The translations under genes and the position numbers were made by a program. Below the pieces are notes generated by a model. The model ran no database searches and had not been told where the DNA came from. It saw only the letters and a program-made list of their open reading frames with translations. 64,000 nucleotides of DNA from NCBI GenBank assembly GCA_036274495.1, contig DASUFP010000076.1, positions 8,367 to 72,366 of the forward strand. The letters are read 5' to 3'. Numbering within the stretch: position 1 is the first letter of the stretch; every line of letters begins with the position of its first letter. Shown here piece by piece: positions 3,995-19,309 of this stretch. Source of the DNA: Bacteroidia bacterium. GTDB lineage: Bacteria; Bacteroidota; Bacteroidia; AKYH767-A; OLB10.

Positions 3995-4026
3995 TCGAGG
4001 ATGGGTTGTAAAAAGTGAAGGTAAAA

Positions 4027-4650: not shown

Positions 4651-5951
4651 TATTTTCGAGATTTAAGTTTTGTATTACTTTTTGTTTTGGTTTCAATTGG
4701 ATCACCGGCCGTTAGTTCCAGTTGTCTGATTGATTTAACTGCACTTCCGGCGATTCCCCGAATGGATGAGTAAATGTGGGTAGCATTCAATATCACTTTT
4801 TCAATTTCTTTCTGCCGTTGCTTCCAGATTGCATCCATTGCCCGCTTTTCGTTTAAAAGGTTTTTCTGCATTGTTGTAAATGCCTCAACTATGGCTTCCA
4901 TCTGCATCCGGAATTCATTACTCACCATGTATTCATATATGATTTCCATTTTGCTACCTTTATCTGATTGTGCTGTTTTCACGTCATTTAGTCGGATGAG
5001 ACTTTCACGTAATACATAACATAGTCCTTTTGCTTCCTCCCGTGAACATATCCAAATACCTTCCATCAGAGATAACCTCTCAACACCTTTCGGATATGTT
5101 TCCGTAACAAGAACGCCGATGTCAGCATTCCGGGCCCTCATGTCGGCCTTAAATTTGGGAATCCATGATGGCTGGAAATCCTTGGTTCGTTTGGTTTCAT
5201 AGTATATGGACCCGCAATTATGTTGCATAGTCGAATGGACAAAATGAATGCTGTCGCCACCTTTTGTACCTTTTTTGATTTCTTCGATGGTATCCATTGG
5301 AAAACATTGCCTGAGATAATCTTCTAGATTGGTCTCCATCACTTCACCTCGCAGTTGGCCTGAACCTTGGTCAGCTTTGCGCGATGCCTCGGTTAGTTGA
5401 GTTTTCAATTGCTGAATTACATGTTCCTTTTCCGCGACAAGCAATTCGTTTTTTGACTCCAAATCCTTTCTGATTTTTTTACGTTCCTGTTCGATTTCAG
5501 CTGTGATTCTTAATTCAGCTTCTGCTTCAATTTTTTCTTTTAGCGCTGTTTTTTCTCGATGAAGTTTTTGAAAATCTGCCTTGAGCTTGTTGAGTTCTTT
5601 TACTTCTTTCACTTTTTCATCCAACTGTTCCTTATAAGAATTAAGTTCATCGGACTTTTCAACCTGTAGTTGTTCCCGGATCATCTTTTCCTGTTTCACA
5701 CGTTCCGTGGAGAGACATTTATTAACTCCCAGCATTATCGCAGTATCGATTTCTGACTTCAGTTTTAATATTTCGGATTTCTCATGTTCTAACTTTACAT
5801 TTTTTTGCTCCAGTTCTTTTCTATCTTGTGCGAGTTTCTCATTCAATTGCCTGGAAAGCTGGGAATACATCTGAGTGTATAGAATTTCATTGACATTTAT
5901 AGCCTCATTGCATTGGGGACAGTTTATTGTGGTTTTTTCCATTTTATTCAA
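4650..5951 (-). CDS. DUF2130-like protein: N-terminal CxxC...C zinc ribbon, a long coiled coil, and a conserved C-terminal domain.
   Basis: Begins MNKMEKTTINCPQCNEAIN, a zinc ribbon. About 200 aa of E/K/L/Q-rich heptad-like sequence follows. C-terminal domain contains ADIGVLVTETYPKG, where acidic residues and a lysine could form a nuclease-like site. The family assignment is from memory. Confidence 0.5.
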   Translation of the reverse strand: MNKMEKTTINCPQCNEAINVNEILYTQMYSQLSRQLNEKLAQDRKELEQKNVKLEHEKSEILKLKSEIDTAIMLGVNKCLSTERVKQEKMIREQLQVEKSDELNSYKEQLDEKVKEVKELNKLKADFQKLHREKTALKEKIEAEAELRITAEIEQERKKIRKDLESKNELLVAEKEHVIQQLKTQLTEASRKADQGSGQLRGEVMETNLEDYLRQCFPMDTIEEIKKGTKGGDSIHFVHSTMQHNCGSIYYETKRTKDFQPSWIPKFKADMRARNADIGVLVTETYPKGVERLSLMEGIWICSREEAKGLCYVLRESLIRLNDVKTAQSDKGSKMEIIYEYMVSNEFRMQMEAIVEAFTTMQKNLLNEKRAMDAIWKQRQKEIEKVILNATHIYSSIRGIAGSAVKSIRQLELTAGDPIETKTKSNTKLKSRK

Positions 5952-6136: not shown

Positions 6137-6334
6137 ATGGCACAGAAAGTAAAAAAGGAAATAAAAGGAGGTGTCCGGAAAGGAGCAGGAAGAAAACCAG
6201 TGGCAGATCCAAAAGTGATGGTACCACTTTATATTGAAACATCAATAATTAGTGCCTTAGGAGGATTGGAAGAGGTGCGGAGTGCTTGTTATTCATTCAT
6301 AAGGTCCAAAATTGACAATAAAAAGCAAAATTGA
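6137..6334 (+). CDS. Small basic protein (65 aa), possible DNA-binding regulator and first gene of the plus-strand operon.
   Basis: ORF track. Contains GGVRKGAGRKPV, a basic AT-hook-like stretch. Ends 9 bp before the next gene. Confidence 0.35.
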   Translation: MAQKVKKEIKGGVRKGAGRKPVADPKVMVPLYIETSIISALGGLEEVRSACYSFIRSKIDNKKQN

Positions 6335-6343
6335 AGTATACAA

Positions 6344-7222
6344 ATGAAGGCTAAAAATAGTGTTGAAATTTCCCAGTCGCCAAAGCCGACGTTTTCAGGC
6401 CATGATTCGTTTGAATGCCGACAATTCTGGCTTAAGAAGGGATTTGATCATTTAATGGTCGAAGCAAAGTTCAATGATGAAGCAGTAGTTCCACTAGGTG
6501 TCGGACGAAATATGGTAAACGCGATTCGGCATTGGATGAAATCATTTGGTATGATAGATCAACACGATAAACTAACTGATTTTTCAAGAATAATATTTGG
6601 AAAAAAAGGATTTGATCCATATTTGGAAGATGAATCCTCCTTATGGCTCCTTCATTTTCAACTTGTGACAACTGAATTTGCTTCTCTTTACGGTTTAATT
6701 TTTAATGAATTCAGAAAACAAAAGCCCGAATTTACTAAAGAACATATAGTGCGTTTTATACTGACAAAATATCCAGGTTTCAATGAGAATACCATTGGTA
6801 AGGATTTTGAAACATTCACCAGAATGTATATTCCAAAAAGCAATGAAGCAGAAGAAAATTATGATGGAATCTTATCAGAATTAAATCTTGTTGAAGAAAT
6901 AAAGAAGAACATTTATGTTATCAAGAATGAAGATCGCCAACGAATCCCAGCAGAGATTATTTTGTATTGCATACTTCAGCAATCGAATAAAAAATCATTT
7001 GATTTCGAAAGCTTGCTGCTTGACAAAAATAGTGTGGGGTCAGTTTTCGCTCTAACAAAACAAGGGCTTGCAGATAAACTTGAGGAATTAGGCGAAAATT
7101 ATAAAAGGGAAGGCATTGTATTTAGTAACCATGCCGGAATCCGAGAATTACAGTTCAAGAAAACCTTGCCGTCTCCCAAAGAATTTTTAACGAATTACTA
7201 TAATCAAACTTATGCCGGTTAA
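6344..7222 (+). CDS. DUF4007-like protein (SspB-like candidate).
   Basis: 292 aa. Its stop overlaps the start of the large ATPase, with the PAPS-reductase-like gene next, which is the gene order of SspB-SspC-SspD modules. The call rests on context plus a vague sequence recollection; I have not verified the domain. Confidence 0.4.
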   Translation: MKAKNSVEISQSPKPTFSGHDSFECRQFWLKKGFDHLMVEAKFNDEAVVPLGVGRNMVNAIRHWMKSFGMIDQHDKLTDFSRIIFGKKGFDPYLEDESSLWLLHFQLVTTEFASLYGLIFNEFRKQKPEFTKEHIVRFILTKYPGFNENTIGKDFETFTRMYIPKSNEAEENYDGILSELNLVEEIKKNIYVIKNEDRQRIPAEIILYCILQQSNKKSFDFESLLLDKNSVGSVFALTKQGLADKLEELGENYKREGIVFSNHAGIRELQFKKTLPSPKEFLTNYYNQTYAG

Positions 7223-10200
7223 ATTCTCACCTTCAATCAATATTATTCGAGATACTGATCGTCAGTTCCGGTATGTTGTTACACAAAATGCTTCCAATAC
7301 AATTCAGCAGGTTATTGATGATTTTCATTTTGGATTTCATAGCAATATTATTATTGGTAGTTATGGAACGGGAAAATCCGCACTTTTAAAAGCATTTGAA
7401 CAATCACTTAAAGGCGAATCAAAGTATTTTAATGTTTCATCATTAAAAGTAAAACCATCAGCTGTTAAATTTATACGGTTCATTGGCGAGTATGAATCCA
7501 TCATACAATCGTTTGCTGACCATTTTGGCATAAAAAAGGTATCCAGTGGCCACCAGCAAATTTTTGATGCAATCTTTCAGGAATATGAAGAAGTTCGAAA
7601 GAATGGAATACTTGTAATATTCATTGATGAATTTGGAAAGTTCTTGGAATACGCTTCACAGAATCAAGTTGAAAAAGAACTTTATTTTATACAGCAACTT
7701 GCTGAATTTGTAAACGATCCAGATAGGAATATTTTTCTAATAACAACACTTCATCAGAATTTTGAAGCCTATTCTTCACGATTGGACGTTAATCAGCGGA
7801 ATGAGTGGAAAAAAGTTAAGGGTCGATTCAAAGAAATTACTTTTAATGAACCTGTAGAGCAATTATTGGCTTTAGCATCCTCAGTTATCAACAGCACTCC
7901 TGATAAAAAGCAAATAAAGAAGATACAAGAGCTTAACAAAATCTTCACTCAAAATTCTTTATTTAAGATAAATAGAGATTTTATAAACCAAATTAGTTCA
8001 AAGCTTTTTCCGCTAGATTTTATAACTGGTTGTTGTGCTACAAGAGCATTGCAAGAGTACGGTCAGAATGAACGCTCATTATTTACTTTCATTGAATCGA
8101 GAGATTTTCATAATTTGATTCGTGATAATCGTATCGCAAATCTTTCTTGGCTTTATGATTATTTGTTTTTGAATTTTTATTCATTTTTAAATTCAAAACA
8201 TAATGTACATTTCAATGGATGGTCAGATATAAAGGATTGCATTGAACGCGCTGAGACCGTATTGGTAAAGCACGTTGAGGAAGCTATAGCTATTATCAAG
8301 ACAATTGGCTTGTTGAGTATTTTTACAAATAAAGGAGCGAAAATAAATGAGGAATTTCTGATATCTTATTCCGCAACAGCATTAGATGTCTCGTCCGTAC
8401 CAGAAATTTTGAAGCAACTAAGTGCTCACAAAATTATAAAGTACAGTCGCTTCAATGATTCATTCAGGTTATTCCAAGGTACAGACGTTGATATTGACAA
8501 GGCATTAAATGATGAGGACAAAAAAGTTGAAAAAATTCGTGATGTTGCTTTGTCACTTAATAAGCATTTTGGTGCCATGCCTGGCGTTACCGCAAAGGAA
8601 GTCACCTACAAAACTGGAACAACACGCACTTTCAAATTTGATATTTCTGAAATTCCTAAAATTTTAAAAGCAACCGATGAAATTGACGGATATATAAACC
8701 TTGTAATTTCCGAGCATATATCAGAAATTCAATTGAAGGAACATTCTTCAAAGGATCGCGAAGCTAATCTTTATGGATTGTTTGGAAACTCCAAGAAGAT
8801 TAAATTTCACTTGCATGAGATTGAGAAGGCTCAAAACGTAAAAATGAAAAATACAGATGATAAAATTGTGCAGAAAGAGATGGAAATCATCATCAACAGT
8901 AATAAAAACTTACTGCATCATTATTTCATTGATGAAATATATTCTGATAGCGTCACATGGTTCTATAATGGGAAAAAGTTAAAGATTTCTAACAAAAGAA
9001 TGTTTAACCAGGCACTCTCCGAAATTGCTGCTAAAATTTATCCACTGACCCCTGTATTTAAGAATGAGCTTGTTAATCGCCACAAGATATCCTCATCAAT
9101 TCATACAGCTAGGAAAGATTTCTTTAATCATCTTGTGAATAATTGGAGTGAACCAAAATTAAGTTATGATGATAACTTTCCACCTGACAAAACTATTTAC
9201 ATTTCACTATTACTTGAAAATGGTATACACAAAGCTATAAAGGGAGGATTTGGACTTTATGGCCCGTCCAATCAATCTTCATTCGCGCCGGTGTGGGAAG
9301 CATGTGATGAATTTTTGAGATCAACTAAGCACGGTAAACGTCCGATATCTGAATTATATGACTTACTCTTGAGTAAACCTTACAAATTAAAACTTGGCTT
9401 GGCCGAATTTTTGATCCCAACATACTTGTTTGTAAGAAGAGATGATTACGCCTTGTTTGGAAAAAATGGTTTTATACCGGAAATGAATGAAACCACTTTA
9501 TTGCTTTTTGCCCGCAATGCTGAAGAATATATGATTAAAGCATTTGATTTGGATGGTGTAAAAATAGATTTGTTCAACAAATATCGGGAGTTATTGAAAT
9601 TGAAACCTGAACTCAATCCAACGAACGAGGATTTTATTCATAGTATTAAACCGTTCATGACATTTTACAGACAGCTTCCGGAATATTCAAAATTTACCAA
9701 AAAAGGTTTATCATCAGAAGCGCGTGCTGTACGCGATGCTATTATTAATTCTACTGATCCTGAAAAAACATTCTTTGAAGATTTTCCTGGGGCCCTGCAT
9801 CATACAACTAATGAATTAATAAAATCAAAAAAAGCATTACAGGAATATGCAGAACAACTAAAATCGGTAATTAATGAAATACGATCTGCACATGATGAAT
9901 TAATAAACCGGTTTGAAAAATTCATTTGTATTGATATTGTTGGCACTGAAATGGATTTTCAAGAATACCAGGAATTATTGCAAAAGCGTTTTAAGAATAT
10001 TAAGGACCATCTGCTCTTAAATTATCACAAATCTTTCTTAATGAGAGTAAACTCGCCATTGGACGACAAAAAATCTTGGCTATCATCAGTGGCCCAATCT
10101 TTAATTGGAAAATCCTTAGAAACAATAAAGGATGATGAAGAAAATATTTTGAAAGACAAATTTCGGACTATTGTGCATGAATTGGATAATTTCGTGGAGG

Positions 10201-10418
10201 TATCAGCAATCAAAGCTGATTCGGCCAGGGAAAAAGTTTTTAAGTTTGAAGTGACTGGCGAAAAAATGGTACACAAAACTTTTGTAAAAATTCCAAAAAC
10301 AAAATATTTAGAATTGGATAATATCGAACAGCAAATTAAGAAAATATTGAAAAAGGATAGACAATTAAATATTGCAGTTTTGACAAAGATTATTGAGGAG
10401 CAATTAAGAAATGAATAA
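7212..10418 (+). CDS. Large P-loop NTPase (1068 aa), SspC-like candidate.
   Basis: Walker A GSYGTGKS at about aa 50 and Walker B ILVIFIDEFGK at about aa 135. This compact spacing argues against an ABC/SMC-type ATPase. About 900 aa of unassigned sequence follow. Start and stop both overlap the neighbouring genes (7212-7222 and 10411-10418). Confidence 0.6.
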   Translation: MPVKFSPSINIIRDTDRQFRYVVTQNASNTIQQVIDDFHFGFHSNIIIGSYGTGKSALLKAFEQSLKGESKYFNVSSLKVKPSAVKFIRFIGEYESIIQSFADHFGIKKVSSGHQQIFDAIFQEYEEVRKNGILVIFIDEFGKFLEYASQNQVEKELYFIQQLAEFVNDPDRNIFLITTLHQNFEAYSSRLDVNQRNEWKKVKGRFKEITFNEPVEQLLALASSVINSTPDKKQIKKIQELNKIFTQNSLFKINRDFINQISSKLFPLDFITGCCATRALQEYGQNERSLFTFIESRDFHNLIRDNRIANLSWLYDYLFLNFYSFLNSKHNVHFNGWSDIKDCIERAETVLVKHVEEAIAIIKTIGLLSIFTNKGAKINEEFLISYSATALDVSSVPEILKQLSAHKIIKYSRFNDSFRLFQGTDVDIDKALNDEDKKVEKIRDVALSLNKHFGAMPGVTAKEVTYKTGTTRTFKFDISEIPKILKATDEIDGYINLVISEHISEIQLKEHSSKDREANLYGLFGNSKKIKFHLHEIEKAQNVKMKNTDDKIVQKEMEIIINSNKNLLHHYFIDEIYSDSVTWFYNGKKLKISNKRMFNQALSEIAAKIYPLTPVFKNELVNRHKISSSIHTARKDFFNHLVNNWSEPKLSYDDNFPPDKTIYISLLLENGIHKAIKGGFGLYGPSNQSSFAPVWEACDEFLRSTKHGKRPISELYDLLLSKPYKLKLGLAEFLIPTYLFVRRDDYALFGKNGFIPEMNETTLLLFARNAEEYMIKAFDLDGVKIDLFNKYRELLKLKPELNPTNEDFIHSIKPFMTFYRQLPEYSKFTKKGLSSEARAVRDAIINSTDPEKTFFEDFPGALHHTTNELIKSKKALQEYAEQLKSVINEIRSAHDELINRFEKFICIDIVGTEMDFQEYQELLQKRFKNIKDHLLLNYHKSFLMRVNSPLDDKKSWLSSVAQSLIGKSLETIKDDEENILKDKFRTIVHELDNFVEVSAIKADSAREKVFKFEVTGEKMVHKTFVKIPKTKYLELDNIEQQIKKILKKDRQLNIAVLTKIIEEQLRNE

Positions 10419-11529
10419 AATTAGACACGTATTAGGAATTTCTGGCGGTAAGGATAGTGCAGCTCTTGCTATTTATCTGAATTTAAAATACCCTCAGTTG
10501 AACATTGACTACTATTTCTGTGATACAGGAAAGGAATTGCAAGAAACGTACCTGTTAATTGAACGGCTTGAAAGTCTTCTTGGAAAGAGCATAACAACGC
10601 TAATTGCGGAAGATGCAAAGCAAAACCCCTCTGATAATCCATTTGATCACTTTTTTAAGATATATCGGGGCTACCTTCCTTCTTCAACTGCTCGATGGTG
10701 CACAAAGAAATTAAAATTAGAACCTTTTGAAAAATACGTAGGTGAATCGCCTGTTATTTCATATGTCGGTATTCGTGGCGACGAAAACCGAGAAGGGTAT
10801 ATTTCAAAAAAGTCAAATATTCAATCTATATTTCCTTTCAGGAAGAATATATGGAGTGAAGATGTAATTAATAAAGTGATGCATCCGACAAACAATGAGT
10901 GGCTTATGGATGTATATTCTAGCTTAATGTCGGGACGCAAGCTTGATAAAGTTAATTCGGCCATATTTTCTAGTATTTCTTCTGATGTAGAAAAAGCAAA
11001 AAGGTTATCTGACTTGTTGGACGTTGGCGTTGTTGAGTTCAATAAAGCTGTTTTCAGCTTTATGAAAAATACTGATTATCCGCTGGCTTTAGAAGAAGAT
11101 TTTCCGTTGCTTGAAAATGACGAGGTGCTCGTGAGAGAGGATATATTCAGGATATTACGAGAGAGTGGAGTAGGTGTACCAGAGTACTACGAAAAAATAA
11201 AGTACGAGGTAGATGGTAAAAGCAGTGAATACGCTCGCAGTCGGTCCGGCTGTTACTTTTGTTTCTTTCAGCAAAAAATTGAATGGATTTGGCTGTATGA
11301 ACAACACCCAGATCTTTTTGAAAAGGCCATGCAGTATGAAAATGAAAAAGAAGGCTTTACTTGGAACCAACACGAGAGCCTGGATGATCTGATTCAACCA
11401 TCCCGTATGGAACAGATAAAACGTGACCACCTTTTAAGAAAAAACAAAGAGAAATCAATAAAGTCACCATACCTTTTGGATATTTTGGATGATACTGAAA
11501 GCGATGGATGTACAGCTTGTTTTATTTAA
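10411..11529 (+). CDS. PAPS-reductase-family PP-loop ATP pyrophosphatase (DndC/SspD-like).
   Basis: N-terminal PP-loop LGISGGKDSAAL (the SGGxDS motif). Also RWCTKKLKLEPF, the R(W/F)C motif of the PAPS reductase/DndC family, and a C-terminal Cys pair CYFCFF. 372 aa. Confidence 0.65.
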   Translation: MNKIRHVLGISGGKDSAALAIYLNLKYPQLNIDYYFCDTGKELQETYLLIERLESLLGKSITTLIAEDAKQNPSDNPFDHFFKIYRGYLPSSTARWCTKKLKLEPFEKYVGESPVISYVGIRGDENREGYISKKSNIQSIFPFRKNIWSEDVINKVMHPTNNEWLMDVYSSLMSGRKLDKVNSAIFSSISSDVEKAKRLSDLLDVGVVEFNKAVFSFMKNTDYPLALEEDFPLLENDEVLVREDIFRILRESGVGVPEYYEKIKYEVDGKSSEYARSRSGCYFCFFQQKIEWIWLYEQHPDLFEKAMQYENEKEGFTWNQHESLDDLIQPSRMEQIKRDHLLRKNKEKSIKSPYLLDILDDTESDGCTACFI

Positions 11530-12653
11530 AACTAATTATGGAATATTATTTAAAGGAATACTCTATTCAAGAAGTTTTTCAATTGGTTGATAAAAATCTA
11601 ATTGATTTAAGCCCGGCATATCAAAGAAATTTCATTTGGTCTCCGGATAATCAAAAGGAATTAATTGATACGATTTTAAAAGATTACCCCTTACCAAGTT
11701 TCTTTTTTTATGAAAAAAAAGATAAGACTTTTGAAATGGTTGACGGGCAACAACGAACGAAAACTATTATCCGTTTCATCCAGGGATTTATTACCTCTTC
11801 TAAGGAATTTGATAGGGTGACGTTTGATAGAATTGATCAGGAGAAGTTTTTGAATTATAGAATATCTGTAATAATTATAAAGACTTTACAAAATGAGAGT
11901 CTATTAAAAGAATTTTATGTATTAATAAATAAAAAAGGCGTTCACTTAAATATTGCCGAGGTCAATAAATCTGAATTTTTTGACACTAACTTTATGAAGT
12001 TAGCAAATGAGCTTTTATCATATCAAAATTTAATTAATCTTGACTTGTTTTCCGAAGCTGTTGTAAAAAGAATGAATGATAGATCATTTGTTGAGGAATT
12101 GCTCGCATATCTTTATAGTGGTACAAAAGAAAAGCGCAAATCAGTAGAAAATGTTTTTAAAACTGATATAAGTGACGGCGATTATAAATATTTAGATAAT
12201 CAATTTAAGAGAGTTATCGACAAGATTGAAACACTCAACAGAATATCGCCGATTAGTGAAACAAGATATAAACAAAAAAATGATTTTTATACGCTTTTCT
12301 CTTTTATAAATGAGAATATTGATAGCAATATGGATTTGCTTAACTTTCAATATGCAATTCTGCTATTTATAGATGGAAATGATAAGGAAGGAAGACAAAT
12401 GATTAGACCATCAAATTCTGAATGTGAGGCTTTTAGGGAGTATGCAAACAATTGTATCACGCAATCAAATTCCAGAGCAGCTAGAGAAAATAGACTGAAA
12501 TTTTTTAATGCATTATTAAAGAATGAATCAACTCAAAACAATGAAATTCTAATAAGTGTGCTTGATTATTTATCCTCACTTTATGGAAACGACAAAATAT
12601 CGTTAAAAAAGATTAACGGCTACGAGTTGTTGGATGTAGAAAGGATCAAATAA
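11508..12653 (+). CDS. DUF262 (ParB/GmrSD N-terminal-like) domain protein without a DUF1524/HNH C-terminus. The true start is probably the ATG at 11538 (MEYYLKEY...), immediately after the upstream stop.
   Basis: Textbook DUF262 motifs: AYQRNFIW and VDGQQRTKTI (the DGQQR motif). 381 aa. Confidence 0.7.
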   Translation: MYSLFYLKLIMEYYLKEYSIQEVFQLVDKNLIDLSPAYQRNFIWSPDNQKELIDTILKDYPLPSFFFYEKKDKTFEMVDGQQRTKTIIRFIQGFITSSKEFDRVTFDRIDQEKFLNYRISVIIIKTLQNESLLKEFYVLINKKGVHLNIAEVNKSEFFDTNFMKLANELLSYQNLINLDLFSEAVVKRMNDRSFVEELLAYLYSGTKEKRKSVENVFKTDISDGDYKYLDNQFKRVIDKIETLNRISPISETRYKQKNDFYTLFSFINENIDSNMDLLNFQYAILLFIDGNDKEGRQMIRPSNSECEAFREYANNCITQSNSRAARENRLKFFNALLKNESTQNNEILISVLDYLSSLYGNDKISLKKINGYELLDVERIK

Positions 12654-12660
12654 TTGAGTT

Positions 12661-13689
12661 ATGAATTTTAATTTTCCTGATAATAAACTCATTGATAAAG
12701 GTACGATTTGCAACCGGATTGGTACATCGACTTTTGGAGAGCTTATAAATATTGCAATTCCAGTTGATAACCAAATTTCAATAGATGGAACTGATTTTTA
12801 TTTTACATATTTGAAAGGAGCTGATCCTGGTAATAAAGGCGGTAATTCTATAATTTTGAACTTGTATGCTAGCCAGGAAATTGATTTGGACAATTTAGAG
12901 TATGGTGTACCAGACCTTGTATTAAAAATTTCAAAATTTAGAAATTCGATTAATCCGTTATTTCCAAATAAAAAGCAAAAGCGATTTGAAAAAGAAATTG
13001 AAGCTTTAAGAAAATGTAATGATGAGCCGTTTCAAAATGTTATCAAGATTTTTCATAATGGTATATGTAAAATTAAAAGCTCAAATAATAGATTTTACGA
13101 TGAGCACTTATACTACACGATGGAGTATGCAGAATACGATTTAAAAAGTTATATAGAAGCAAAACATGATGAACTTTCATTGGATGAGAAATTATCATTA
13201 TGTATTAGTATTTGTGAGGGACTCAAAGAGTTATACTCATTAGAATATTATCATAGAGATATAAAACCTGATAATATATTTATGATAGATGGGTTGTGGA
13301 AAATAGGCGATTTGGGACTGGTAGCTGAGCGTAACAATTCTGATGAAATTGATGGAGTGGCAGAAAAAATAGGGCCGATTGGATGGTTGTCGCCAGAATC
13401 GATGAATAAATATCTTTGTGAGGGGAAAGGATTTAAGTTTAAACATGATTTTATTATCGATCATCAATCAGATATTTTTCAACTAGGAAAAGTCTTTTGG
13501 TATATTTTCCAAAATAATGCCCCAGTGGGATCAATAAAAATCTCGGATTTTTTAATTAAACAAAGTAATTTATATTCAGTATTAAGAACTATGTTGAATC
13601 ATTCTAAAAGAAGACGGTTCAAAAATGTAGAAGAGGTAATAAGAATTATGAAAATAGTTGAGAAGAAAATTCTTATGGTTACAAATTAA
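12661..13689 (+). CDS. Eukaryotic-type Ser/Thr protein kinase domain protein, last gene of the plus-strand operon.
   Basis: Catalytic loop YHRDIKPDNIF (the HRDxKPxN motif). KIGDLGL stands in the DFG position. GPIGWLSPE is APE-like. IGTSTFGEL is glycine-loop-like, LVLKISK is a candidate beta3 lysine, and MEYAEYD is hinge-like. 342 aa. Confidence 0.65.
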   Translation: MNFNFPDNKLIDKGTICNRIGTSTFGELINIAIPVDNQISIDGTDFYFTYLKGADPGNKGGNSIILNLYASQEIDLDNLEYGVPDLVLKISKFRNSINPLFPNKKQKRFEKEIEALRKCNDEPFQNVIKIFHNGICKIKSSNNRFYDEHLYYTMEYAEYDLKSYIEAKHDELSLDEKLSLCISICEGLKELYSLEYYHRDIKPDNIFMIDGLWKIGDLGLVAERNNSDEIDGVAEKIGPIGWLSPESMNKYLCEGKGFKFKHDFIIDHQSDIFQLGKVFWYIFQNNAPVGSIKISDFLIKQSNLYSVLRTMLNHSKRRRFKNVEEVIRIMKIVEKKILMVTN

Positions 13690-13698
13690 AGAATGTAT

Positions 13699-16092
13699 TT
13701 ACTCTTCGAGTACACCCATCAGCTGTTCCATTCCAAAATTTAGCAAGAAGTCGGAGTAGTAACTGTCGAAAACATCGCGGATATATTCATCAACAGTAAT
13801 TTCTTCGAGTTTATCTCCTTTTGGAATAGTTAATGCATATTTTCTACGTTTAGTAATCATGTACAGAAAAAGTGTATGGAAATACACAGAGGAGAGATAG
13901 CGTTTTTGTGCAACTACGATTTGATCCTCTGATTTAAGGTTTTTTCTATGGTTTAAAAATACATTACTATCAAGATTGATATAAACTTTTTCAAGTTTAT
14001 CACCTTCACCAACTGGGAACATTACTGTTTCGTGGCTCATTGATATGCCATGCTCTTCCATTTGTTGCCACTGTTCCTTATGTACACGTTTCAATTCCGG
14101 CAAACCAATGTTTTCTAATTCTTCCTCTTGTTTCGGAGCCTTTTCCATTGGTGCTTCTGGTTGTACAATCTTTACAAGCAAAATTTGATTCTGCGCTTCT
14201 CCTGGCGCTGTAAGCGAAATATTTATTTCAATTTCATCACCAACTTTCAATTCATGTGTTGGATTCAACGAAAGTTTGATAGTTCCTTTATTTGGACTGC
14301 TTTTTACGATATTCAGGTACTCTGAGATTTCTTTTTTATTACCTGGTTCATCACCACCTTTAGCAATATTTCTTTTAATTTTCAACAACGCTAATTGCAA
14401 CTCACCTGGTTCTTCAACTCTGTCAAAATAATCATTATCAACGTCAGTTTCAAACTTGATGATTTTTTCACCATTCAATGGAAGATTGATTGCATTTGTG
14501 TTTCCTTTGTTTCCAAGAAGGTTAAAAAAGGTAGGAAAACGTTTTGAATTGAATGGTTTTTCTTCTCGTTCTGCTTTTGGTCTTTGACCATCCTGACGTT
14601 GATTGGTTTCTTTTTTCTCTTCCAACTTAAGTGTGTTTTGTAGTAGTTTAAACAATTCACTATCCTTTGGAAGATTTTTAGCGAATGATTTTATTAACTC
14701 AGAAGTGTCTTCACTTTCCAAGCCAATAGACTCTTTACGATGTCTGTTGATTTCATCTAATTGGCTTTTACGAAGTTTTTTACCAAGATAATCCCTGAGC
14801 ATCAAGGATTCATCACCCCCTTTTAATCGCTCACGATCACTCATGAATAATTCTTCTCGGAAATCTGCTTTCATTTCAGTGCAATCGCAGTGAATCAATA
14901 AGTAATCCTTTAACAGGTTAAATTTTAAAGTTCGTGTAACAAATTCCGAAGTATAACTCCCCTGAACTTGGCCGTTCACAGAAAACATTACAGACATATT
15001 ATTTCTGAAGAATCTGTCACCTATAATTTTTTTTGATTCTTTTACATTACGTTTATCAAGTTTTGGTTTGAAAACATAGCATGTAACTTTAGCTTTACCA
15101 AAATGCTCATCAAAATATTCTTCAGAGAAAAAGCTTTCAACATAGTCATTTTTATCCTCTTCTAGCCTTCTCTTCAGGCCATACAAATCTAATTCAAGTA
15201 CTTTATTGTTCGGGTAACGTTCTTTTTTATCAACTGTATAAATTGGTAATACAGGTTCAAAAAGATATTCATTTAAACTTTGATTTAAATCTTGTGCAAA
15301 GCCTGAGTAGCCTGATGGAAATTGATAAGAAAATAGTTTAATTACCGTACCAGTCTTGAACTTCCTCCCATGTAATTTCAAATCCATCTCACCAGAATCA
15401 AAAGATGGAATCATTCCATCAATTTTCAGATATTCAAAATAGCTGAATCGCCTGGCATCATTTGCCTCACCTATTTTGCGTTGCCTACACAATGTAAAAC
15501 CAAATTTGCCTGTATTATCAAACCGCTTTGAACCAATAAGCTGGTAACGTTTTTTACCGCAAAAAACTAGTGCACCGCTTCCACCCATGTTATACTTTCC
15601 CTGGACAAAGTGAATATTTATTTTGTTACCGCGCACTAATGACAAAAAGGTATTTTCAAAATCTTGAGGATGTTGACCTTCACCATTGTCATAAATAATT
15701 ACAGAAGTGTTTCGAGTGGGGCCGTCAGCAACAATCTGTATTTCTTCTGCTTGTTTTCTTCTAAAAGATTGCAAGTCCCATTGAGTGTGATCAGGAAAGA
15801 ATTTGTTAATGGCCTGCTCCATTGTATGTGGTGCATCAGCAGAAGTGGGATTTATACCCAATTCAATACATTTTCGCATCAACAAGGCATCAATAGAATT
15901 AGTGACTTTCTCAACTAGTGCTGCAATCGGATTTGATTGTTGACCCCTAACAATTCCAAATAGTTTTTCATCTCCTCCAAACGGAGTCCAATTGTCATTT
16001 TTGAAAATGTCCGGATTGCTTTCTATTATTTCATCTACGGATTCTTCTGTTTGTGCAAAATACAATTGCTCAAAAATCTTTCTAAGTTGCAT
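13699..16092 (-). CDS. GHKL-superfamily (Bergerat-fold, HATPase_c-like) ATPase with a long uncharacterised C-terminal region (797 aa).
   Basis: N-box ALVEKVTNSIDA (the E-x-x-x-N-S-x-D-A motif), G1 box IIYDNGEGQ (DxGxG), G2 box GKYNMGGSGA. Convergent with the kinase gene; the two stop codons are 9 bp apart. Confidence 0.6.
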   Translation of the reverse strand: MQLRKIFEQLYFAQTEESVDEIIESNPDIFKNDNWTPFGGDEKLFGIVRGQQSNPIAALVEKVTNSIDALLMRKCIELGINPTSADAPHTMEQAINKFFPDHTQWDLQSFRRKQAEEIQIVADGPTRNTSVIIYDNGEGQHPQDFENTFLSLVRGNKINIHFVQGKYNMGGSGALVFCGKKRYQLIGSKRFDNTGKFGFTLCRQRKIGEANDARRFSYFEYLKIDGMIPSFDSGEMDLKLHGRKFKTGTVIKLFSYQFPSGYSGFAQDLNQSLNEYLFEPVLPIYTVDKKERYPNNKVLELDLYGLKRRLEEDKNDYVESFFSEEYFDEHFGKAKVTCYVFKPKLDKRNVKESKKIIGDRFFRNNMSVMFSVNGQVQGSYTSEFVTRTLKFNLLKDYLLIHCDCTEMKADFREELFMSDRERLKGGDESLMLRDYLGKKLRKSQLDEINRHRKESIGLESEDTSELIKSFAKNLPKDSELFKLLQNTLKLEEKKETNQRQDGQRPKAEREEKPFNSKRFPTFFNLLGNKGNTNAINLPLNGEKIIKFETDVDNDYFDRVEEPGELQLALLKIKRNIAKGGDEPGNKKEISEYLNIVKSSPNKGTIKLSLNPTHELKVGDEIEINISLTAPGEAQNQILLVKIVQPEAPMEKAPKQEEELENIGLPELKRVHKEQWQQMEEHGISMSHETVMFPVGEGDKLEKVYINLDSNVFLNHRKNLKSEDQIVVAQKRYLSSVYFHTLFLYMITKRRKYALTIPKGDKLEEITVDEYIRDVFDSYYSDFLLNFGMEQLMGVLEE

Positions 16093-16337
16093 AATGTCAG
16101 TTGTTTAAAATTGGCAAGGTTACAAATATATACAAAAACCCTGTGTTTCAACAAAATGACTCATATCTATGGAAGCATGAAGAAATCAAAGCTATTATAG
16201 CATTAACAAATAAACCATTTTTGAGGCCCTGTTATGGATTATTTTAAGACTTGACAGTTGCTTTCAAGGCATAGTCACCTTCGAAGCTTGATCCTTGCTC
16301 AAATCTTTGCTAATGAAGCGGAACGGGCCTTTAAATA

Positions 16338-16388
16338 TCCACCAAAAAAAACAGCCGGCCTCGCGCGAGGCCGGTTGTTTTGGATAAG
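16338..16388. terminator. Bidirectional rho-independent terminator between the methyltransferase and the GHKL ATPase gene.
   Basis: aaaaaaaa-cagCCGGCCTCGcgCGAGGCCGGttg-tttt. A perfect 9-bp GC-rich stem flanked by an A-run on one side and a T-run on the other. Confidence 0.6.
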
Positions 16389-16753
16389 ATTCCATAACGT
16401 TGTGAATAAGTGGTGCTGAAATTAAGCGCTTAAAATCTGCACCGGCCAGTCACAACGGAGGATTCTTTGAGATATAGTTCTCTTTCGTGGTTCTTAAATA
16501 CTACTTTTTACTTACCTTTTGGTCGGGGTGCCGGTGGTGGATTATTTCCGCGTCCGGGTCCGGAAGGTTTGCTAGTTGTACTGGGGCCATTTGGTGGCCT
16601 GACTGTTGTTTTTGCCATAAATAAACTTGTTTTTAAATTATTTGACATTCGGTGCGCCACTTTTAGCATGCATTAGCGACAGAACCAATTACAAGCTCTA
16701 AGTTAGAGTAATTTTAGTAAAAAGCAAATATTTTCAAATTATAAATCAAACCG

Positions 16754-17506
16754 CTAAAGCCCAATCGACTTCATATATTGAAAATACACCGGGTCAATCT
16801 CGAACCCAATGTAGAATCGTCCCAGCTCCTTCGCAACCTTGCATATTGTACCGCTGCCTGCGAACGGATCAACAACCACATCCCCTGGATTTGTAGAAAT
16901 CAGGATTATTTTACGCGCGATTTCTTCCGGTATCGGACACGGATGAGGATTTCCGGATTTGATTTTTGAAACATTTTTCACAATGTTTTCAATCCACCAA
17001 TCATAAAGTGGGGCCATATGTCCGGCTTCCATTCTAGCAATAATTCGCTTATCATTCGGGTTTTTGTAGGGTTGTGATGCCCTCTTGAAATCAGGCCTGT
17101 GATTCCAAAAAGTGATTTGCCTGGATTGTTTCTTCGTGTTTGAATTGTAACACCAGAATGCACTTTCTGTACATGAGGTCATTAATGCCTGTGGCAATAG
17201 GTTAATTGTAGGCTCCGGATAATGAATAATCGCTGATTTTTTACCCCAAAATGCATCGTGCAACAATTGAACATATTCATCATTTTTTAAATTGTCATCA
17301 TAATAATCGTAATGATAATTCTGGTTGTAAGGCGGGTCAGAGATAAAGAAGCAATCATTCCATGTTGACAAATCCATTGTCCTGAAATCAGCATTAAAAA
17401 CAGTGTCGAGCGGGAGACAAGTTAGATTACTTGTGGTGGCAGTTGGAATAAGTATGCCGTCATACGGTAGATAGATTCCTGAGTCGGTTTTTTTAGTTAT
17501 TTTCAT
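16754..17506 (-). CDS. Beta-class amino (N6-adenine or N4-cytosine) DNA methyltransferase.
   Basis: Motif IV DPPY (FFISDPPYNQ) precedes motif I VVDPFAGSGT. That order defines the beta class. 250 aa. Confidence 0.8.
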   Translation of the reverse strand: MKITKKTDSGIYLPYDGILIPTATTSNLTCLPLDTVFNADFRTMDLSTWNDCFFISDPPYNQNYHYDYYDDNLKNDEYVQLLHDAFWGKKSAIIHYPEPTINLLPQALMTSCTESAFWCYNSNTKKQSRQITFWNHRPDFKRASQPYKNPNDKRIIARMEAGHMAPLYDWWIENIVKNVSKIKSGNPHPCPIPEEIARKIILISTNPGDVVVDPFAGSGTICKVAKELGRFYIGFEIDPVYFQYMKSIGL

Positions 17507-17712: not shown

Positions 17713-19302
17713 TTATCCTTTCTGCCTGTCAGCCAGAATAACTTGTTCAATAAAGTCATCACCCTTGGTTTCGACTGTGGTCTGGACATAAGATAGAAAA
17801 TCATCAAGCTTGGCATGGCCAGAAAACAACATGCATATTTCAGCCTGAATTTTTCGATGGTAGTAAAAATTTGTGCAGAAGGATCGTCTTGCCACATGGG
17901 AGCTGATGCACTCAAACAATTTTGGAACACGAGGTTCTGGCCAACCTTTCTGTTGTTCTTTATACAGTTCTGACTTACCGGTTTGTAAATTTATCCTATA
18001 TGAAATAAAATCCTGATTGAAGGACTCATCAATTGATACAACTCTCGGCATAACATCTTGTATTAAAATATTGTATTTATCCAGGTCCAATTCTTTAAAC
18101 TGGAAATTATACTTCTCAAGTATTTTATACACTTTATCGTGCAGTGGAATTTGTTTCCTTTCTCCGACTTTGGTTGATCGCGATTCAATAAAATGGATGG
18201 TATGTCCCTTGTGTTGTTTAGTTTGTACCCTAAAAGCTTGGTTCCAGTCGCCAAAACGTAAGCCTCCAGTGTATGCACCAACGAGGAAAAGATCCCTGAC
18301 ATATTCAAGTTGTTTTTCTGTCCAGCTATCACCAAATTTAATCTGCATCATAGATTCTAATTGCTCTTCTGTTAGGTATGGCTGTCTTACTTCCTCCCGT
18401 TCTGCAGAATATGTTTTGCTGGAAGGTCTTACGGCGGTTGGTGAAATGCATTTATCTTCATCAATAGCCCAGTACAATACAGATTTCAATCGGGATACAT
18501 ACTTTGCAAAATTGTTAAGTGTATTCATCTGCGGCCTTAACCAATTGAGGAATTCTTTAGATACGTTGTCATTATATTGATTGATAGTAATTTTGGAATT
18601 CCATTTCTTGAATTTTTTGGAGAGATTAACATAAGGAGTATCATCCTTCAACCTTCCTTTACCTGGCAACTGCATTTTTGCTTTCGCAACCTCCAGAATA
18701 TAGTCTGCGAATAATGAAGAATTGTCTTGTATTGCACCTGGCTCAGATAAATGTTCACTAGTAGCAGTGATAGCGAATGTGGGTTCTAGAATATATTCAA
18801 GCGGAGCATCATGAAGAACAAAGAAACGATCAAGATTAATTGTCCGGTTATTAGAATCCACCAATCGGAAATTATGCCTTATGATTTTATTTTTTAATTG
18901 CTCATAAAAAAATCCTCGTGGTAATTCTTTGTTTATTGCTTCATCCACATCCTTCTGAAACTTCGTTGGTTGTTTATGAATGGAAATATCAATCCCATCT
19001 TCAATAATGGAGTGGAATGCTTTGTTATTAAAAAACTCCACAATTTGTTCATCTGATAACCTATAATAGTCGGTGAGTCGGTCACCGATATAATTTATCA
19101 AATCAAGCATGGTGGTCCTCAAAACGGAATCAATAGGCAGATTTTTTACATCATCCCAATGGTTCCTGGGAAGCGAAATTCCAGTAGATTTATACAACTG
19201 CAAGTATTTGCCCCGATACTTAATTCCAAAACCAATGCTCACCTGAATAGGGTGGGTTGTAGCTTTTGTTTGCTGTAACCTGAGTGAAATTGTTGGCTTC
19301 AT
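17713..19302 (-). CDS. Tyrosine recombinase/integrase of the Bacteroidota type.
   Basis: C-terminal catalytic region HVARRSFCTNFYYHRK...MLFSGHAKLDDFLSYV, giving the R...H-x-x-R...H...Y arrangement with the terminal Tyr. The N-terminus MKPTISLRLQQ...YRGKYLQLY is arm-binding-domain-like. 529 aa. The overlapping ORF 17658..17930(-) is judged spurious. Confidence 0.7.
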   Translation of the reverse strand: MKPTISLRLQQTKATTHPIQVSIGFGIKYRGKYLQLYKSTGISLPRNHWDDVKNLPIDSVLRTTMLDLINYIGDRLTDYYRLSDEQIVEFFNNKAFHSIIEDGIDISIHKQPTKFQKDVDEAINKELPRGFFYEQLKNKIIRHNFRLVDSNNRTINLDRFFVLHDAPLEYILEPTFAITATSEHLSEPGAIQDNSSLFADYILEVAKAKMQLPGKGRLKDDTPYVNLSKKFKKWNSKITINQYNDNVSKEFLNWLRPQMNTLNNFAKYVSRLKSVLYWAIDEDKCISPTAVRPSSKTYSAEREEVRQPYLTEEQLESMMQIKFGDSWTEKQLEYVRDLFLVGAYTGGLRFGDWNQAFRVQTKQHKGHTIHFIESRSTKVGERKQIPLHDKVYKILEKYNFQFKELDLDKYNILIQDVMPRVVSIDESFNQDFISYRINLQTGKSELYKEQQKGWPEPRVPKLFECISSHVARRSFCTNFYYHRKIQAEICMLFSGHAKLDDFLSYVQTTVETKGDDFIEQVILADRQKG

Positions 19303-19309
19303 GGTGATT

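What the first reader, a model, noticed from the sequence alone, without database searches (positions are those of the whole stretch)
13699..17506. 797-aa GHKL/Bergerat-fold ATPase next to a beta-class DPPY DNA methyltransferase, a possible novel restriction-like or MORC-like module
The ATPase shows the N-box ALVEKVTNSIDA, G1 DNGEG and G2 GGSGA in its first 180 residues. About 600 residues of unassigned sequence follow. It is convergent with the kinase operon; the stop codons are 9 bp apart with no terminator between them. It lies 660 bp downstream of a 250-aa methyltransferase in which DPPY comes before FAGSGT, and a bidirectional terminator separates the two. GHKL ATPases occur in MORC-like and Hsp90-like defense proteins, so this one could be the restriction or effector partner of the methyltransferase, or an independent effector. 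The C-terminal region may hold a cryptic nuclease.
Basis: partly seen in the sequence, partly recalled or inferred. Interest (0 to 1): 0.55.

Follow-up and report, generated by a model that had tools for sequence, protein, structure and literature searches.

The report
GHKL ATPase partner of Ssp phosphorothioation
The 797-residue ATPase is real and MORC/Hsp90-like, but its partner is the neighbouring SspBCD DNA-phosphorothioation operon and not the methyltransferase, which makes it a strong candidate for a missing, undescribed restriction-type component of these sulfur-based defence systems.

Summary
Window 13699-16092 (-) encodes a 797-aa protein with intact GHKL motifs. It lies 9 bp from the convergent kinase gene and 661 bp from a beta-class N6-adenine methyltransferase.

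- The "kinase operon" is SspB-SspC-SspD, the single-strand DNA phosphorothioation module, followed by a DUF262 gene and a Ser/Thr kinase gene.
- In 15 of 15 loci found through ATPase relatives of at least 44% identity, the ATPase sits next to Ssp genes.
- Starting from SspD instead, 17 of 26 loci with enough flank carry the ATPase. All 36 hits are convergent with sspD.
- Most loci without it carry SspE or PbeA/PbeC-like genes in the same position.
- The methyltransferase was found in none of those 95 loci. It belongs to an integrase-borne island backbone (integrase-MTase ... DUF2130-207aa-DUF2779) that carries a different defence cargo elsewhere.

The predicted structure is GHKL plus transducer (Hsp90, MORC3, SMCHD1 and TopoVI-B-like), a helical linker, a beta-sandwich and an unassigned C-terminal domain. 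No nuclease signature was detected.

My best reading is an undescribed restriction-type or effector partner of SspBCD, working as an ATP-driven DNA clamp. How it acts on the target is unknown. I class it as a new variant of a known kind, interest 0.62.

The parts
13699..16092 (-). 797-aa GHKL ATPase, called 'GHKL-800' here: the candidate restriction-type partner of SspBCD
   Evidence: ORF. More than 2,400 homologues. The family has 1,737 clusters at 50% identity. It lies next to Ssp genes in 15/15 and 17/26 loci.
15193..16092 (-). Residues 1-300: N-terminal extension plus the Bergerat ATP-binding domain (motif I E61/N65/D68, motif II D135xGxG139, motif III G165..G170..G173, T200)
   Evidence: Conserved columns. 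Pfam HATPase_c_3 covers residues 58-179. AF2 pLDDT is mostly 80-95.
14728..15192 (-). Residues 301-455: transducer (S5-like middle) domain, with invariant N373-G374-Q375 and R420
   Evidence: AF2 pLDDT is about 85-94. Foldseek alignments to Hsp90 N+M, MORC3, SMCHD1 and ParE cover about 450-490 columns. Assigning R420 as the gamma-phosphate sensor is my inference.
14533..14727 (-). Residues 456-520: helical segment and a Lys/Glu-rich flexible linker
   Evidence: AF2 pLDDT is below 50 for residues 457-512. This is the least conserved region.
14158..14532 (-). Residues 521-645: all-beta sandwich domain with the conserved motifs FPTxF and TDxxNDYFxR
   Evidence: DSSP strands. Weak Ig-like/BIG2 matches of about 125 columns in BFVD probably fall here, though their position in the query was not reported.
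13702..14100 (-). Residues 665-797: C-terminal alpha/beta domain (W675, INMDS motif with N706, long helix 722-749). No family assignment; possibly the dimerisation or effector domain.
   Evidence: AF2 secondary structure. No Pfam, PDB or hhalign match.
6344..7222 (+). sspB (DUF4007)
   Evidence: PADLOC SspB at E = 1.6e-95. Pfam DUF4007 at E = 5e-72.
7212..10418 (+). sspC (BrxC-like AAA+ ATPase)
   Evidence: PADLOC SspC at E = 0, 1259 bits, full length.
10411..11529 (+). sspD (PAPS-reductase-like sulfur-insertion enzyme)
   Evidence: PADLOC SspD at E = 6e-94. Pfam PAPS_reduct.
11508..12653 (+). DUF262 (GmrSD_N) protein, 381 aa: first gene of a variable two-gene cassette
   Evidence: Pfam GmrSD_N at E = 2e-20. 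PADLOC NsnA-like and not SspE. The cassette is present in only some loci.
12661..13689 (+). Ser/Thr protein kinase, 342 aa: second gene of the variable cassette
   Evidence: Pfam Pkinase at E = 1e-19. PADLOC mad6, Stk2 and PD-T4-6-like.
16093..16753 (.). Non-conserved spacer upstream of the ATPase gene. It holds a GC-rich terminator hairpin at 16355-16374 and a Bacteroidetes-type -7 box, TATATTTG, at 16130-16123 (- strand).
   Evidence: Terminator scan, sequence. No similarity in related loci. No Rfam match. The promoter box is read from the sequence against the published Bacteroides consensus TAnnTTTG, which I cite from my own knowledge.
6319..16755 (.). Cargo slot of the integrative island: the SspBCD, DUF262, kinase and GHKL-800 genes as one insert
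   Evidence: blastn of the window against L021 finds homology only at 3602-6318, 16756-17572 and 17719-19438.
16754..17506 (-). Beta-class N6-adenine DNA methyltransferase, 250 aa. It is island backbone and not a partner of the ATPase.
   Evidence: Pfam N6_N4_Mtase. Homologues of 70% identity lie next to the same integrase with a different cargo. It is found in 0 of 95 Ssp-linked loci.
17713..19302 (-). Tyrosine integrase, 529 aa (island backbone)
   Evidence: Pfam Phage_int_SAM_5 and Phage_integrase. PHROG integrase. 81% identical to the integrase in L021/L022.
1988..5951 (-). Other side of the island backbone: DUF2130 (4650-5951), a 207-aa protein (4027-4650) and DUF2779 (1988-3994)
   Evidence: Pfam. 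Identity to the corresponding genes in L021/L022 is 79%, 45% and 66%.

Best explanation
The 797-aa protein belongs to a large, unnamed family of about 800-aa GHKL ATPases. The architecture is a Bergerat ATP-binding domain, a transducer domain, a helical linker, a beta-sandwich and a C-terminal alpha/beta domain.

Its clade (about 44% identity or more) is a dedicated neighbour of the SspBCD phosphorothioation module. It occupies the position that SspE or PbeA/PbeC-like restriction genes hold in sibling loci. I therefore read it as the restriction-type or effector partner of SspBCD, that is, a new kind of Ssp defence system.

Proposed mechanism, which is inferred and not shown: like MutL, MORC and Hsp90, it forms a dimer held together at the C-terminus. 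Its N-terminal gates close on ATP binding, giving a clamp on DNA. The sulfur marks written by SspBCD, or the SspBCD scanning complex itself, tell it self from non-self. Unmarked invading DNA is then either entrapped and blocked from replication, or handed to a nuclease. That nuclease could be an unrecognised activity in the C-terminal half or a partner protein.

The adjacent methyltransferase is unrelated. It is part of the integrase-borne island backbone into which the whole Ssp/GHKL module is inserted as cargo.
For: Shown here:
1. SspB, SspC and SspD are identified with PADLOC at E = 1.6e-95, 0 and 6e-94.
2. ATPase relatives of 44-84% identity lie next to Ssp genes in 15 of 15 loci, from Bacteroidota, Ignavibacteria, Limnohabitans and an Ensifer plasmid.
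3. In the reverse sampling from SspD, 17 of 26 loci with at least 9 kb downstream carry the ATPase. All 36 hits are convergent with sspD, with a median gap of 2.2 kb.
4. Eight of the nine loci without it carry other genes in that position: SspE (PADLOC E = 7.6e-277), a DUF262 protein matching PADLOC HEC-06/Orf5/SspE models, SspA-PbeA-PbeC-like, or a different GHKL plus helicase. The ninth (L059) has nothing recognisable there.
5. SspA lies directly upstream in the same transcription direction in several loci: Flavobacterium frigoris, and L070, L075 and L076.
6. The island comparison shows SspBCD through the ATPase gene to be one cargo block.
7. All GHKL catalytic motifs are invariant or nearly so across 65 divergent representatives, so an active ATPase is expected.
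8. The AF2 model has pLDDT 78 and pTM 0.71. Foldseek matches Hsp90 N+M, TopoVI-B, SMCHD1 and MORC3.
9. The ATPase is as conserved as SspD (mean pairwise identity 0.60 against 0.61), while SspB and SspC are at 0.44. Its distances correlate only weakly with theirs (Spearman 0.23-0.38, against 0.56-0.72 within SspBCD). This is what a separable restriction module would show.

From the literature: about 84% of sspBCD loci have no known restriction partner (PMC8092258). GHKL+S5 proteins are recurrent components of restriction-modification systems (PMC2292703). A GHKL-nuclease fusion is an experimentally validated anti-phage protein (PMC12137116).
Against: - There is no experimental evidence for this family.
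- No nuclease or other effector domain could be recognised in residues 456-797. The only strongly conserved polar residues there are T549, D550, R558, N706 and D708.
- About a third of sibling SspBCD loci lack the protein, so it is not essential for phosphorothioation. By the same token, its role is inferred from position alone.
- Relatives of about 35% identity are stand-alone single genes with no Ssp nearby. The fold can therefore act without phosphorothioation.
- Being in one operon with SspA would also fit a role in modification.
Confidence: 0.6

Rival explanations
1. The ATPase is an accessory of the modification machinery, not a restriction component. It would be a MutL/Hsp90-like remodeller that loads or recycles the SspB-SspC-SspD complex on DNA or assists sulfur transfer from SspA.
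For: - It is co-directional with sspA and directly downstream of it, with overlapping coordinates, in Flavobacterium frigoris and in L070, L075 and L076.
- It is conserved to the same degree as the catalytic SspD.
- No nuclease motif was found.
- The best structural matches by E-value are Hsp90 N+M domains.
Against: - It is absent from 9 of 26 sibling loci whose SspBCD look intact. Most of those carry SspE or Pbe-like genes in its position.
- sspA is equally co-operonic with PbeA/PbeC-like genes there, so linkage to sspA does not discriminate between the two readings.
- Published SspABCD systems modify DNA without any such protein (PMC8092258).
- Its distances correlate only weakly with those of SspB and SspC.
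Confidence: 0.15
2. It is an autonomous single-gene defence protein, comparable to the GHKL-nuclease VcSduA. It would merely co-localise with SspBCD because both ride in defence islands.
For: - The subfamily at about 35% identity consists of solitary genes between housekeeping genes or in other defence islands (L017, L018, L103-L105).
- More distant relatives lie alone or next to a DNA methyltransferase in an archaeal plasmid.
- Single-gene GHKL defence has a precedent (PMC12137116).
Against: - Random island co-localisation does not give 15 of 15 adjacency across phyla, a fixed convergent orientation in 36 of 36 cases, and sspA placed directly upstream in the same direction in several loci.
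- In L004 the SspBCD genes and the ATPase gene are conserved while the cassette between them is replaced.
- The position is shared with SspE and Pbe-like genes.
Confidence: 0.15
3. One reading: the ATPase is the restriction or effector partner of the adjacent beta-class methyltransferase.
For: - The two genes are 661 bp apart on the same strand.
- MORC-like GHKL proteins do occur with methyltransferases (PMC2292703).
- A relative of 25% identity in Halogeometricum lies next to a different, 584-aa DNA methyltransferase.
Against: - This methyltransferase is absent from all 95 Ssp-linked loci examined.
- Its 70%-identical homologue sits beside the 81%-identical integrase in L021/L022 with a completely different cargo and no ATPase. 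Its 77%-identical homologue lies beside a type I HsdR.
- DNA homology to that island stops exactly at the methyltransferase stop codon, window 16756.
- A terminator hairpin lies between the two genes.
Confidence: 0.02

Closest known systems
SspABCD-SspE and SspABCD-SspFGH phosphorothioate defence systems (Xiong 2020; Wang 2021, PMC8092258)
   Same: - The same modification module, SspB/SspC/SspD, with SspA in some loci.
- The ATPase gene occupies the position next to sspBCD where sibling loci carry SspE.
- The module is mobile and patchily distributed.
   Different: - The partner is a GHKL ATPase with no similarity to SspE (DUF262+DUF1524) or to SspF/G/H (Walker A and FtsK-like proteins).
- No PADLOC Ssp effector model matches it.
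- Whether it attacks unmodified DNA, as SspFGH does, or needs phosphorothioate to be activated, as SspE does, is unknown.
Prokaryotic MORC and paraMORC GHKL+S5 ATPases of restriction-modification systems (Iyer, Abhiman and Aravind 2008, PMC2292703)
   Same: - A GHKL domain plus a transducer domain with intact catalytic motifs.
- A family-specific C-terminal extension.
- Association with a DNA-modification module, and lateral mobility.
- MORC3 is the structural match with the best target coverage (TM 0.52).
   Different: - It is associated with backbone phosphorothioation and not with a methyltransferase, helicase and endonuclease set.
- No SFII helicase or restriction-fold nuclease is consistently linked to it.
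- Membership in any of paraMORC1-5 was not tested, because I had no reference sequences.
VcSduA / paraMORC3 (Shedu type I-D), a GHKL ATPase fused to a DUF4263 PD-(D/E)xK nuclease (PMC12137116)
   Same: - A single polypeptide with an N-terminal GHKL domain, a clamp-like middle domain and a C-terminal domain.
- Relatives of our protein also occur as stand-alone genes.
   Different: - No DUF4263, Shedu or PD-(D/E)xK signature is present.
- The C-terminal half is a beta-sandwich plus an unassigned alpha/beta domain.
MutL
   Same: - A GHKL domain plus a transducer domain followed by a flexible linker and a C-terminal domain.
- It works downstream of a DNA-scanning ATPase and reads an epigenetic mark to choose the strand.
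   Different: - No sequence similarity was detected outside the ATPase motifs.
- The MutL C-terminal endonuclease motifs were not seen.
- There is no hit to any MutL chain in the PDB sequence searches.
BREX (BrxC-centred, non-degradative exclusion)
   Same: SspC is a BrxC homologue (PADLOC BrxC at E = 1.4e-59; PMC12839542). The system pairs a modification with an effector that has no obvious nuclease.
   Different: No PglZ, BrxL, BrxA or BrxB is present. The ATPase has no counterpart among BREX components.

Membership tests
GHKL (Bergerat-fold) ATPase superfamily | Motif I ExxxNxxD, motif II DxGxG, motif III glycine-rich ATP lid, motif IV Thr | tested here: met
   E61/N65/D68, D135-G137-G139, G165/G170/G173 and T200 are invariant or at least 90% conserved in 65 representatives. 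Pfam HATPase_c_3 matches at E = 6e-5, 1.5 bits under the gathering score.
GHKL (Bergerat-fold) ATPase superfamily | Bergerat fold followed by a transducer (S5-like) domain | tested here: met
   The AF2 model (pLDDT about 90 over residues 1-455) matches Hsp90 N+M, TopoVI-B, SMCHD1, ParE and MORC3 at Foldseek E of 3e-9 to 3e-7.
MORC / paraMORC | Family-specific sequence motifs and clustering with reference MORC or paraMORC1-5 sequences | not tested
Only structural resemblance to MORC3 was obtained (TMt 0.52).
MORC / paraMORC | Conserved neighbourhood with an SFII helicase, a restriction-fold or Vsr nuclease and a DNA methyltransferase | tested here: not met
   The neighbours of this clade are SspBCD plus variable cassettes. 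No helicase, nuclease or methyltransferase is consistently linked.
Shedu type I-D (VcSduA / paraMORC3) | C-terminal DUF4263 PD-(D/E)xK nuclease domain | tested here: not met
   No Pfam or PADLOC hit for the whole protein or for 20 C-terminal fragments.
MutL | C-terminal dimerisation and endonuclease domain (DQHA(X)2E(X)4E motif) | tested here: not met
   No MutL chain was found with single-sequence or profile searches of the PDB. I did not see the motif on reading the sequence.
Ssp system: modification module | Adjacent sspB (DUF4007), sspC (BrxC-like AAA+) and sspD (PAPS-reductase-like) genes | tested here: met
   PADLOC SspB at 1.6e-95, SspC at 0 and SspD at 6.4e-94. Pfam DUF4007 and PAPS_reduct.
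Ssp system: known restriction partners (SspE, SspFGH) | Homology to SspE (DUF262+DUF1524) or to SspF/G/H | tested here: not met
   No PADLOC model matches the ATPase. hhalign against an SspE from L067 gives 0.1-0.2% probability. In the literature SspF has a Walker A motif and SspH is FtsK-like.
Ssp system: functional restriction partner | Phosphorothioate-dependent or phosphorothioate-excluded anti-phage activity | not testable with these tools
   This needs phage, plasmid and toxicity assays. Only gene position and co-occurrence support it.
Type II-like restriction-modification pair with the adjacent methyltransferase | Co-occurrence and co-inheritance of the methyltransferase and the putative restriction gene | tested here: not met
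   The methyltransferase is found in 0 of 95 loci. Its homologues lie with the integrase and other cargo.

The most novel reading that the evidence does not exclude
GHKL-800 would be a prokaryotic MORC-like clamp that reads a DNA-backbone mark (phosphorothioate) rather than a base mark. It would exclude unmarked invading DNA without cutting it, by ATP-dependent entrapment or compaction licensed by the BrxC-like SspC scanner. That would be a third, mechanistically distinct class of phosphorothioate-based immunity. It would also be a bacterial analogue of MORC-mediated silencing and a lead on the unsolved effector step of BREX-like systems.
Probability: 0.2. Interest if true: 0.85.

Novelty: new variant of a known kind. 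Interest (0 to 1): 0.62.

Why it matters
About 84% of sspBCD modules have no recognised restriction partner (PMC8092258). That has left open whether they are orphan epigenetic systems or defence systems with unknown effectors.

A single, highly conserved ATPase family sits in the partner position in about two thirds of the 26 informative loci sampled from this SspD clade. Close relatives span several phyla. This gives a concrete, clonable candidate for the missing effector, and cultured carriers exist: Flavobacterium frigoris DSM 15719, Albibacterium sp. RHL897, Algoriphagus oliviformis and Persicitalea jodogahamensis.

If confirmed, it would:
- add a new effector class to phosphorothioate immunity;
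- extend the link between MORC/MutL-type clamps and epigenetic self/non-self discrimination to a backbone modification;
- allow Ssp loci in Bacteroidota and relatives to be annotated as complete systems.

Tried and rejected
Searches that found nothing:
- Sequence searches for a C-terminal nuclease: Pfam on the whole protein and on 20 C-terminal fragments, PADLOC, NCBIfam, PHROGs and PDB profile searches.
- hhalign of the family profiles against SspE, PbeA, PbeC, SspB/C/D, DUF262, DUF2130, DUF2779 and three other GHKL proteins found near Ssp loci. Only tiny matches at ATPase motifs appeared.
- Phage genomes hold no homologue.
- The 661-bp spacer has no Rfam match and is not conserved in related loci.

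Technical failures:
- The first AF2 run, on 34 close homologues, gave an unusable model (pLDDT 63, pTM 0.38). A more diverse 82-sequence alignment fixed this.
- The look-up of the window's own contig failed.

Ideas considered and rejected:
- The ATPase pairs with the DUF262+kinase cassette. Each occurs without the other: L062 and L066 have the cassette and no ATPase, while L023 and L053 have the ATPase and no cassette.
- The about 730-750-aa genes in ATPase-less loci are divergent GHKL-800 copies. The family HMM does not hit them, and PADLOC calls them PbeA and PbeC.

Full report
**1. What is in the window**

The ORF at 13699-16092 (- strand) encodes 797 aa. An identical protein is deposited from a Bacteroidia MAG. 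More than 2,400 proteins of about 800 aa match it at E = 0. An exhaustive search finds 1,737 clusters at 50% identity, nearly all full length. The gene is therefore real and belongs to a large family that every source calls 'hypothetical' or 'ATP-binding protein'.

The geometry is as described. Nine nucleotides separate its stop codon from that of the convergent kinase gene, and no terminator is predicted there. A 661-bp gap separates it from the 250-aa methyltransferase. That gap holds a strong GC-rich hairpin with a T-run at 16374-16355.

The methyltransferase is a beta-class N6_N4 enzyme. DPPY comes before FAGSGT, and Pfam matches at E = 4e-29.

**2. What the neighbours are**

The convergent 'kinase operon' is an Ssp phosphorothioation module:
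- 6344-7222 is SspB (DUF4007; PADLOC E = 1.6e-95).
- 7212-10418 is SspC (PADLOC E = 0, full length).
- 10411-11529 is SspD (PADLOC E = 6e-94; PAPS_reduct).
- A DUF262/GmrSD_N protein and a Ser/Thr kinase follow.

The region up to about 20 kb has a lower G+C content (0.30-0.38) than the rest of the window (0.43-0.47). It ends in a tyrosine integrase at 17713-19302.

**3. The methyltransferase is island backbone, not a partner**

The closest methyltransferase homologues were traced to their contigs.
- In L021 and L022 the order is integrase (81% identical), methyltransferase (70%), then a D12 methylase, a NOV_C protein, an SNF2 helicase and two small genes, then DUF2130 (79%), a 207-aa protein (45%) and DUF2779 (66%).
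- The window has the same outer genes with SspB through the ATPase in the middle.
- DNA homology covers window 3602-6318, 16756-17572 and 17719-19438, and nothing in between.

The SspBCD, DUF262, kinase and ATPase genes are therefore one cargo insert of about 10.4 kb. The methyltransferase travels with the integrase. Another homologue (77% identity) lies beside a type I HsdR and a SAVED protein. This methyltransferase was found in none of 95 Ssp-linked loci.

**4. The real partner is SspBCD**

Starting from the ATPase:
- Contexts of relatives with 44-84% identity were recovered from public assemblies, one genome per species, and plasmids.
- All 15 lie next to Ssp genes.
- They come from Bacteroidota, Ignavibacteria, a Limnohabitans MAG and an Ensifer plasmid.

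Starting from SspD instead (80 metagenome loci):
- 17 of 26 loci with at least 9 kb downstream carry the ATPase.
- All 36 hits are convergent with sspD, with a median gap of 2.2 kb.
- Three are remnants or truncated copies.

The nine informative loci without it are telling. The same position holds:
- SspE (L067; PADLOC E = 7.6e-277);
- a 739-aa DUF262 protein matching PADLOC HEC-06/Orf5/SspE models (L042);
- SspA plus PbeA-like and PbeC-like genes (L062, L064, L082, L084, L093);
- a different, MzaB-like GHKL plus a helicase (L092);
- nothing recognisable (L059).

SspA (PADLOC E = 1.8e-158 for the L064 member of the cluster) lies directly upstream of the ATPase, with overlapping coordinates, in L070, L075, L076 and Flavobacterium frigoris.

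Between sspD and the ATPase gene lies a variable cassette:
- DUF262+kinase, as in the window;
- a three-gene set (a winged-helix protein, a small protein and a P-loop ATPase);
- or DndB plus a 165-aa protein.

In L004 both flanks, SspBCD and the ATPase gene, are about 74-78% identical to the window at the DNA level, while the cassette is replaced.

**5. What the protein looks like**

A first model from close homologues failed. An 82-sequence alignment spanning 34-84% identity to the window protein gave pLDDT 78 and pTM 0.71, with residues 1-455 at about 90.

Foldseek against the PDB aligns the first 450-490 residues to Hsp90 N+M domains, TopoVI-B, the SMCHD1 ATPase module, ParE and MORC3 (E from 3e-9 to 3e-7; best target TM 0.52 for MORC3). 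Against viral models it matches phage rIIA, Hsp90 and topoisomerase subunits. It also gives weak hits of about 125 columns to Ig-like domains, which probably fall on the beta-sandwich.

All ATP-binding motifs are invariant or nearly so across 65 divergent representatives. So are N373-G374-Q375 and R420 in the transducer domain. I infer that R420 plays the gamma-phosphate-sensing role of Hsp90 Arg380.

Beyond residue 455 come:
- helices and a flexible Lys/Glu-rich linker (457-512);
- a beta-sandwich (521-645; motifs FPTxF and TDxxNDYFxR);
- an alpha/beta domain with a long helix (665-797; W675 and the INMDS motif).

No Pfam, PADLOC, NCBIfam, PHROG, PDB-profile or hhalign comparison assigns these regions. 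The few conserved polar residues (T549, D550, R558, N706, D708) do not form a recognisable nuclease signature.

**6. Evolutionary behaviour**

Across 31 loci the ATPase is as conserved as SspD (mean pairwise identity 0.60 and 0.61). SspB and SspC, the DNA-scanning and recognition parts, are at 0.44. ATPase distances correlate weakly with Ssp distances (Spearman 0.23-0.38) compared with SspB/C/D among themselves (0.56-0.72).

The ATPase therefore behaves as a separable module that is exchanged between SspBCD variants. It is unlikely to read the modification sequence motif itself. I infer that it recognises something generic, such as the sulfur mark, SspD, or a conserved surface of SspC.

More distant relatives tell a different story.
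- Relatives at about 35% identity keep all domains but are solitary genes among housekeeping genes or in other defence islands.
- Relatives at 25-28% identity occur alone, or next to a DNA methyltransferase in an archaeal plasmid.

The fold can evidently act in other contexts, and only this clade is specialised to Ssp.

**7. Mechanism**

Shown:
- it is an intact GHKL-transducer ATPase;
- it is a conserved neighbour of SspBCD, in a conserved convergent orientation;
- in sibling loci its position is taken by SspE or Pbe-like genes.

Inferred:
- It is the restriction-type partner of SspBCD.
- By analogy with MutL, MORC and Hsp90, it should be a dimer held at the C-terminus, with N-terminal halves that close on ATP to clamp DNA.
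- Phosphorothioate marks, or the SspBCD scanner, provide self/non-self information.
- The effector step is open. It could be an unrecognised activity in the C-terminal half, recruitment of another nuclease, or non-degradative exclusion. SspC is a BrxC homologue and BREX also lacks an obvious nuclease (PMC12839542).
- The tight stop-to-stop convergence without a terminator, conserved across loci, may couple expression of the two units. This is speculation.

My estimates: about 0.9 that the protein is functionally tied to SspBCD, about 0.6 that it is the defence effector or restriction partner, and about 0.2 that it works without cutting DNA.

**8. Comparison with what is known**

- It works like a MORC/paraMORC or MutL-type module of a restriction-modification system (PMC2292703).
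- It sits where SspE sits in sibling loci.
- It is not SspE or SspF/G/H (PMC8092258), not a Shedu-type GHKL-nuclease (PMC12137116), and not MutL.
- Full-text searches found no paper linking a GHKL, MORC or Hsp90-like ATPase to Ssp systems. The two comparative-genomics surveys of phosphorothioation and BREX systems do not mention one either. The library does not cover most subscription journals, so earlier mention cannot be excluded.

**9. Verdict**

The finding is upgraded from 'ATPase next to a methyltransferase' to 'candidate missing effector of a widespread SspBCD clade'. I class it as a new variant of a known kind of system.

Noticed in passing
window 11508-13689 (+); also L001, L011, L025, L030, L038, L041, L045, L050, L060, L062, L066 and others: A two-gene cassette, DUF262/GmrSD_N (about 330-380 aa, with no DUF1524 nuclease) plus a Ser/Thr kinase (about 340 aa), follows sspD in the same direction in many loci. 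It occurs both with and without the GHKL ATPase. It looks like an SspE-type sensor domain paired with a kinase in place of a nuclease, and could be a separate phosphorothioate-sensing module.
   Followed up: partly
window 1988-6318 and 16756-19438; L021 and L022: An integrative-island backbone (529-aa tyrosine integrase, 250-aa methyltransferase ... DUF2130, 207-aa protein, DUF2779) has an exchangeable defence cargo slot. The window carries Ssp/GHKL. L021 and L022 carry an SNF2 helicase, a NOV_C protein, a D12 methylase and two small genes.
   Followed up: partly
L003, L019, L023, L026, L035, L054, L059, L076, L082, L087 (downstream of sspD): A recurrent three-gene cassette lies co-directional with sspBCD: a 360-560-aa protein with a weak winged-helix hit, a 205-300-aa protein, and a 370-aa P-loop ATPase with a faint BrxC/BrxD resemblance. 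No PADLOC match was found beyond a weak DolB hit.
   Followed up: partly
L062, L064, L082, L084, L093: An sspA - PbeA-like (744 aa) - PbeC-like (about 728 aa) operon lies next to bacterial sspBCD. This would pair a Pbe-type restriction module, described for archaeal Dnd systems, with Ssp modification.
   Followed up: no
L021 3637-6148: A tandem array of seven near-identical 86-aa GIY-YIG ORFs (one of them a shorter 55-aa copy) lies directly beside the integrase of the related island.
   Followed up: no
L018 12522-16321; L014 7333-11708; L092 13528-16907: Other, unrelated GHKL proteins lie close to GHKL-800 family members or to sspBCD. They are a Metallophos protein plus a 774-aa HATPase_c_3 protein, a 680-aa protein plus a 776-aa 'sensor histidine kinase' with two HATPase domains, and a 595-aa MzaB-like GHKL plus a helicase.
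   Followed up: partly
window 16400-16750: The upstream part of the 661-bp spacer is locally G+C-rich (for example ccaccaccggcaccccgacc on the - strand). It has no ORF of note, no Rfam match and no similarity in related loci. It may be a remnant of an earlier cargo junction.
   Followed up: partly
BFVD matches of the model: The N-terminal half of the ATPase resembles phage rIIA 'membrane integrity protector' proteins as closely as it resembles Hsp90, and the overall protein sizes are similar (700-830 aa). The C-terminal halves were not compared.
   Followed up: no
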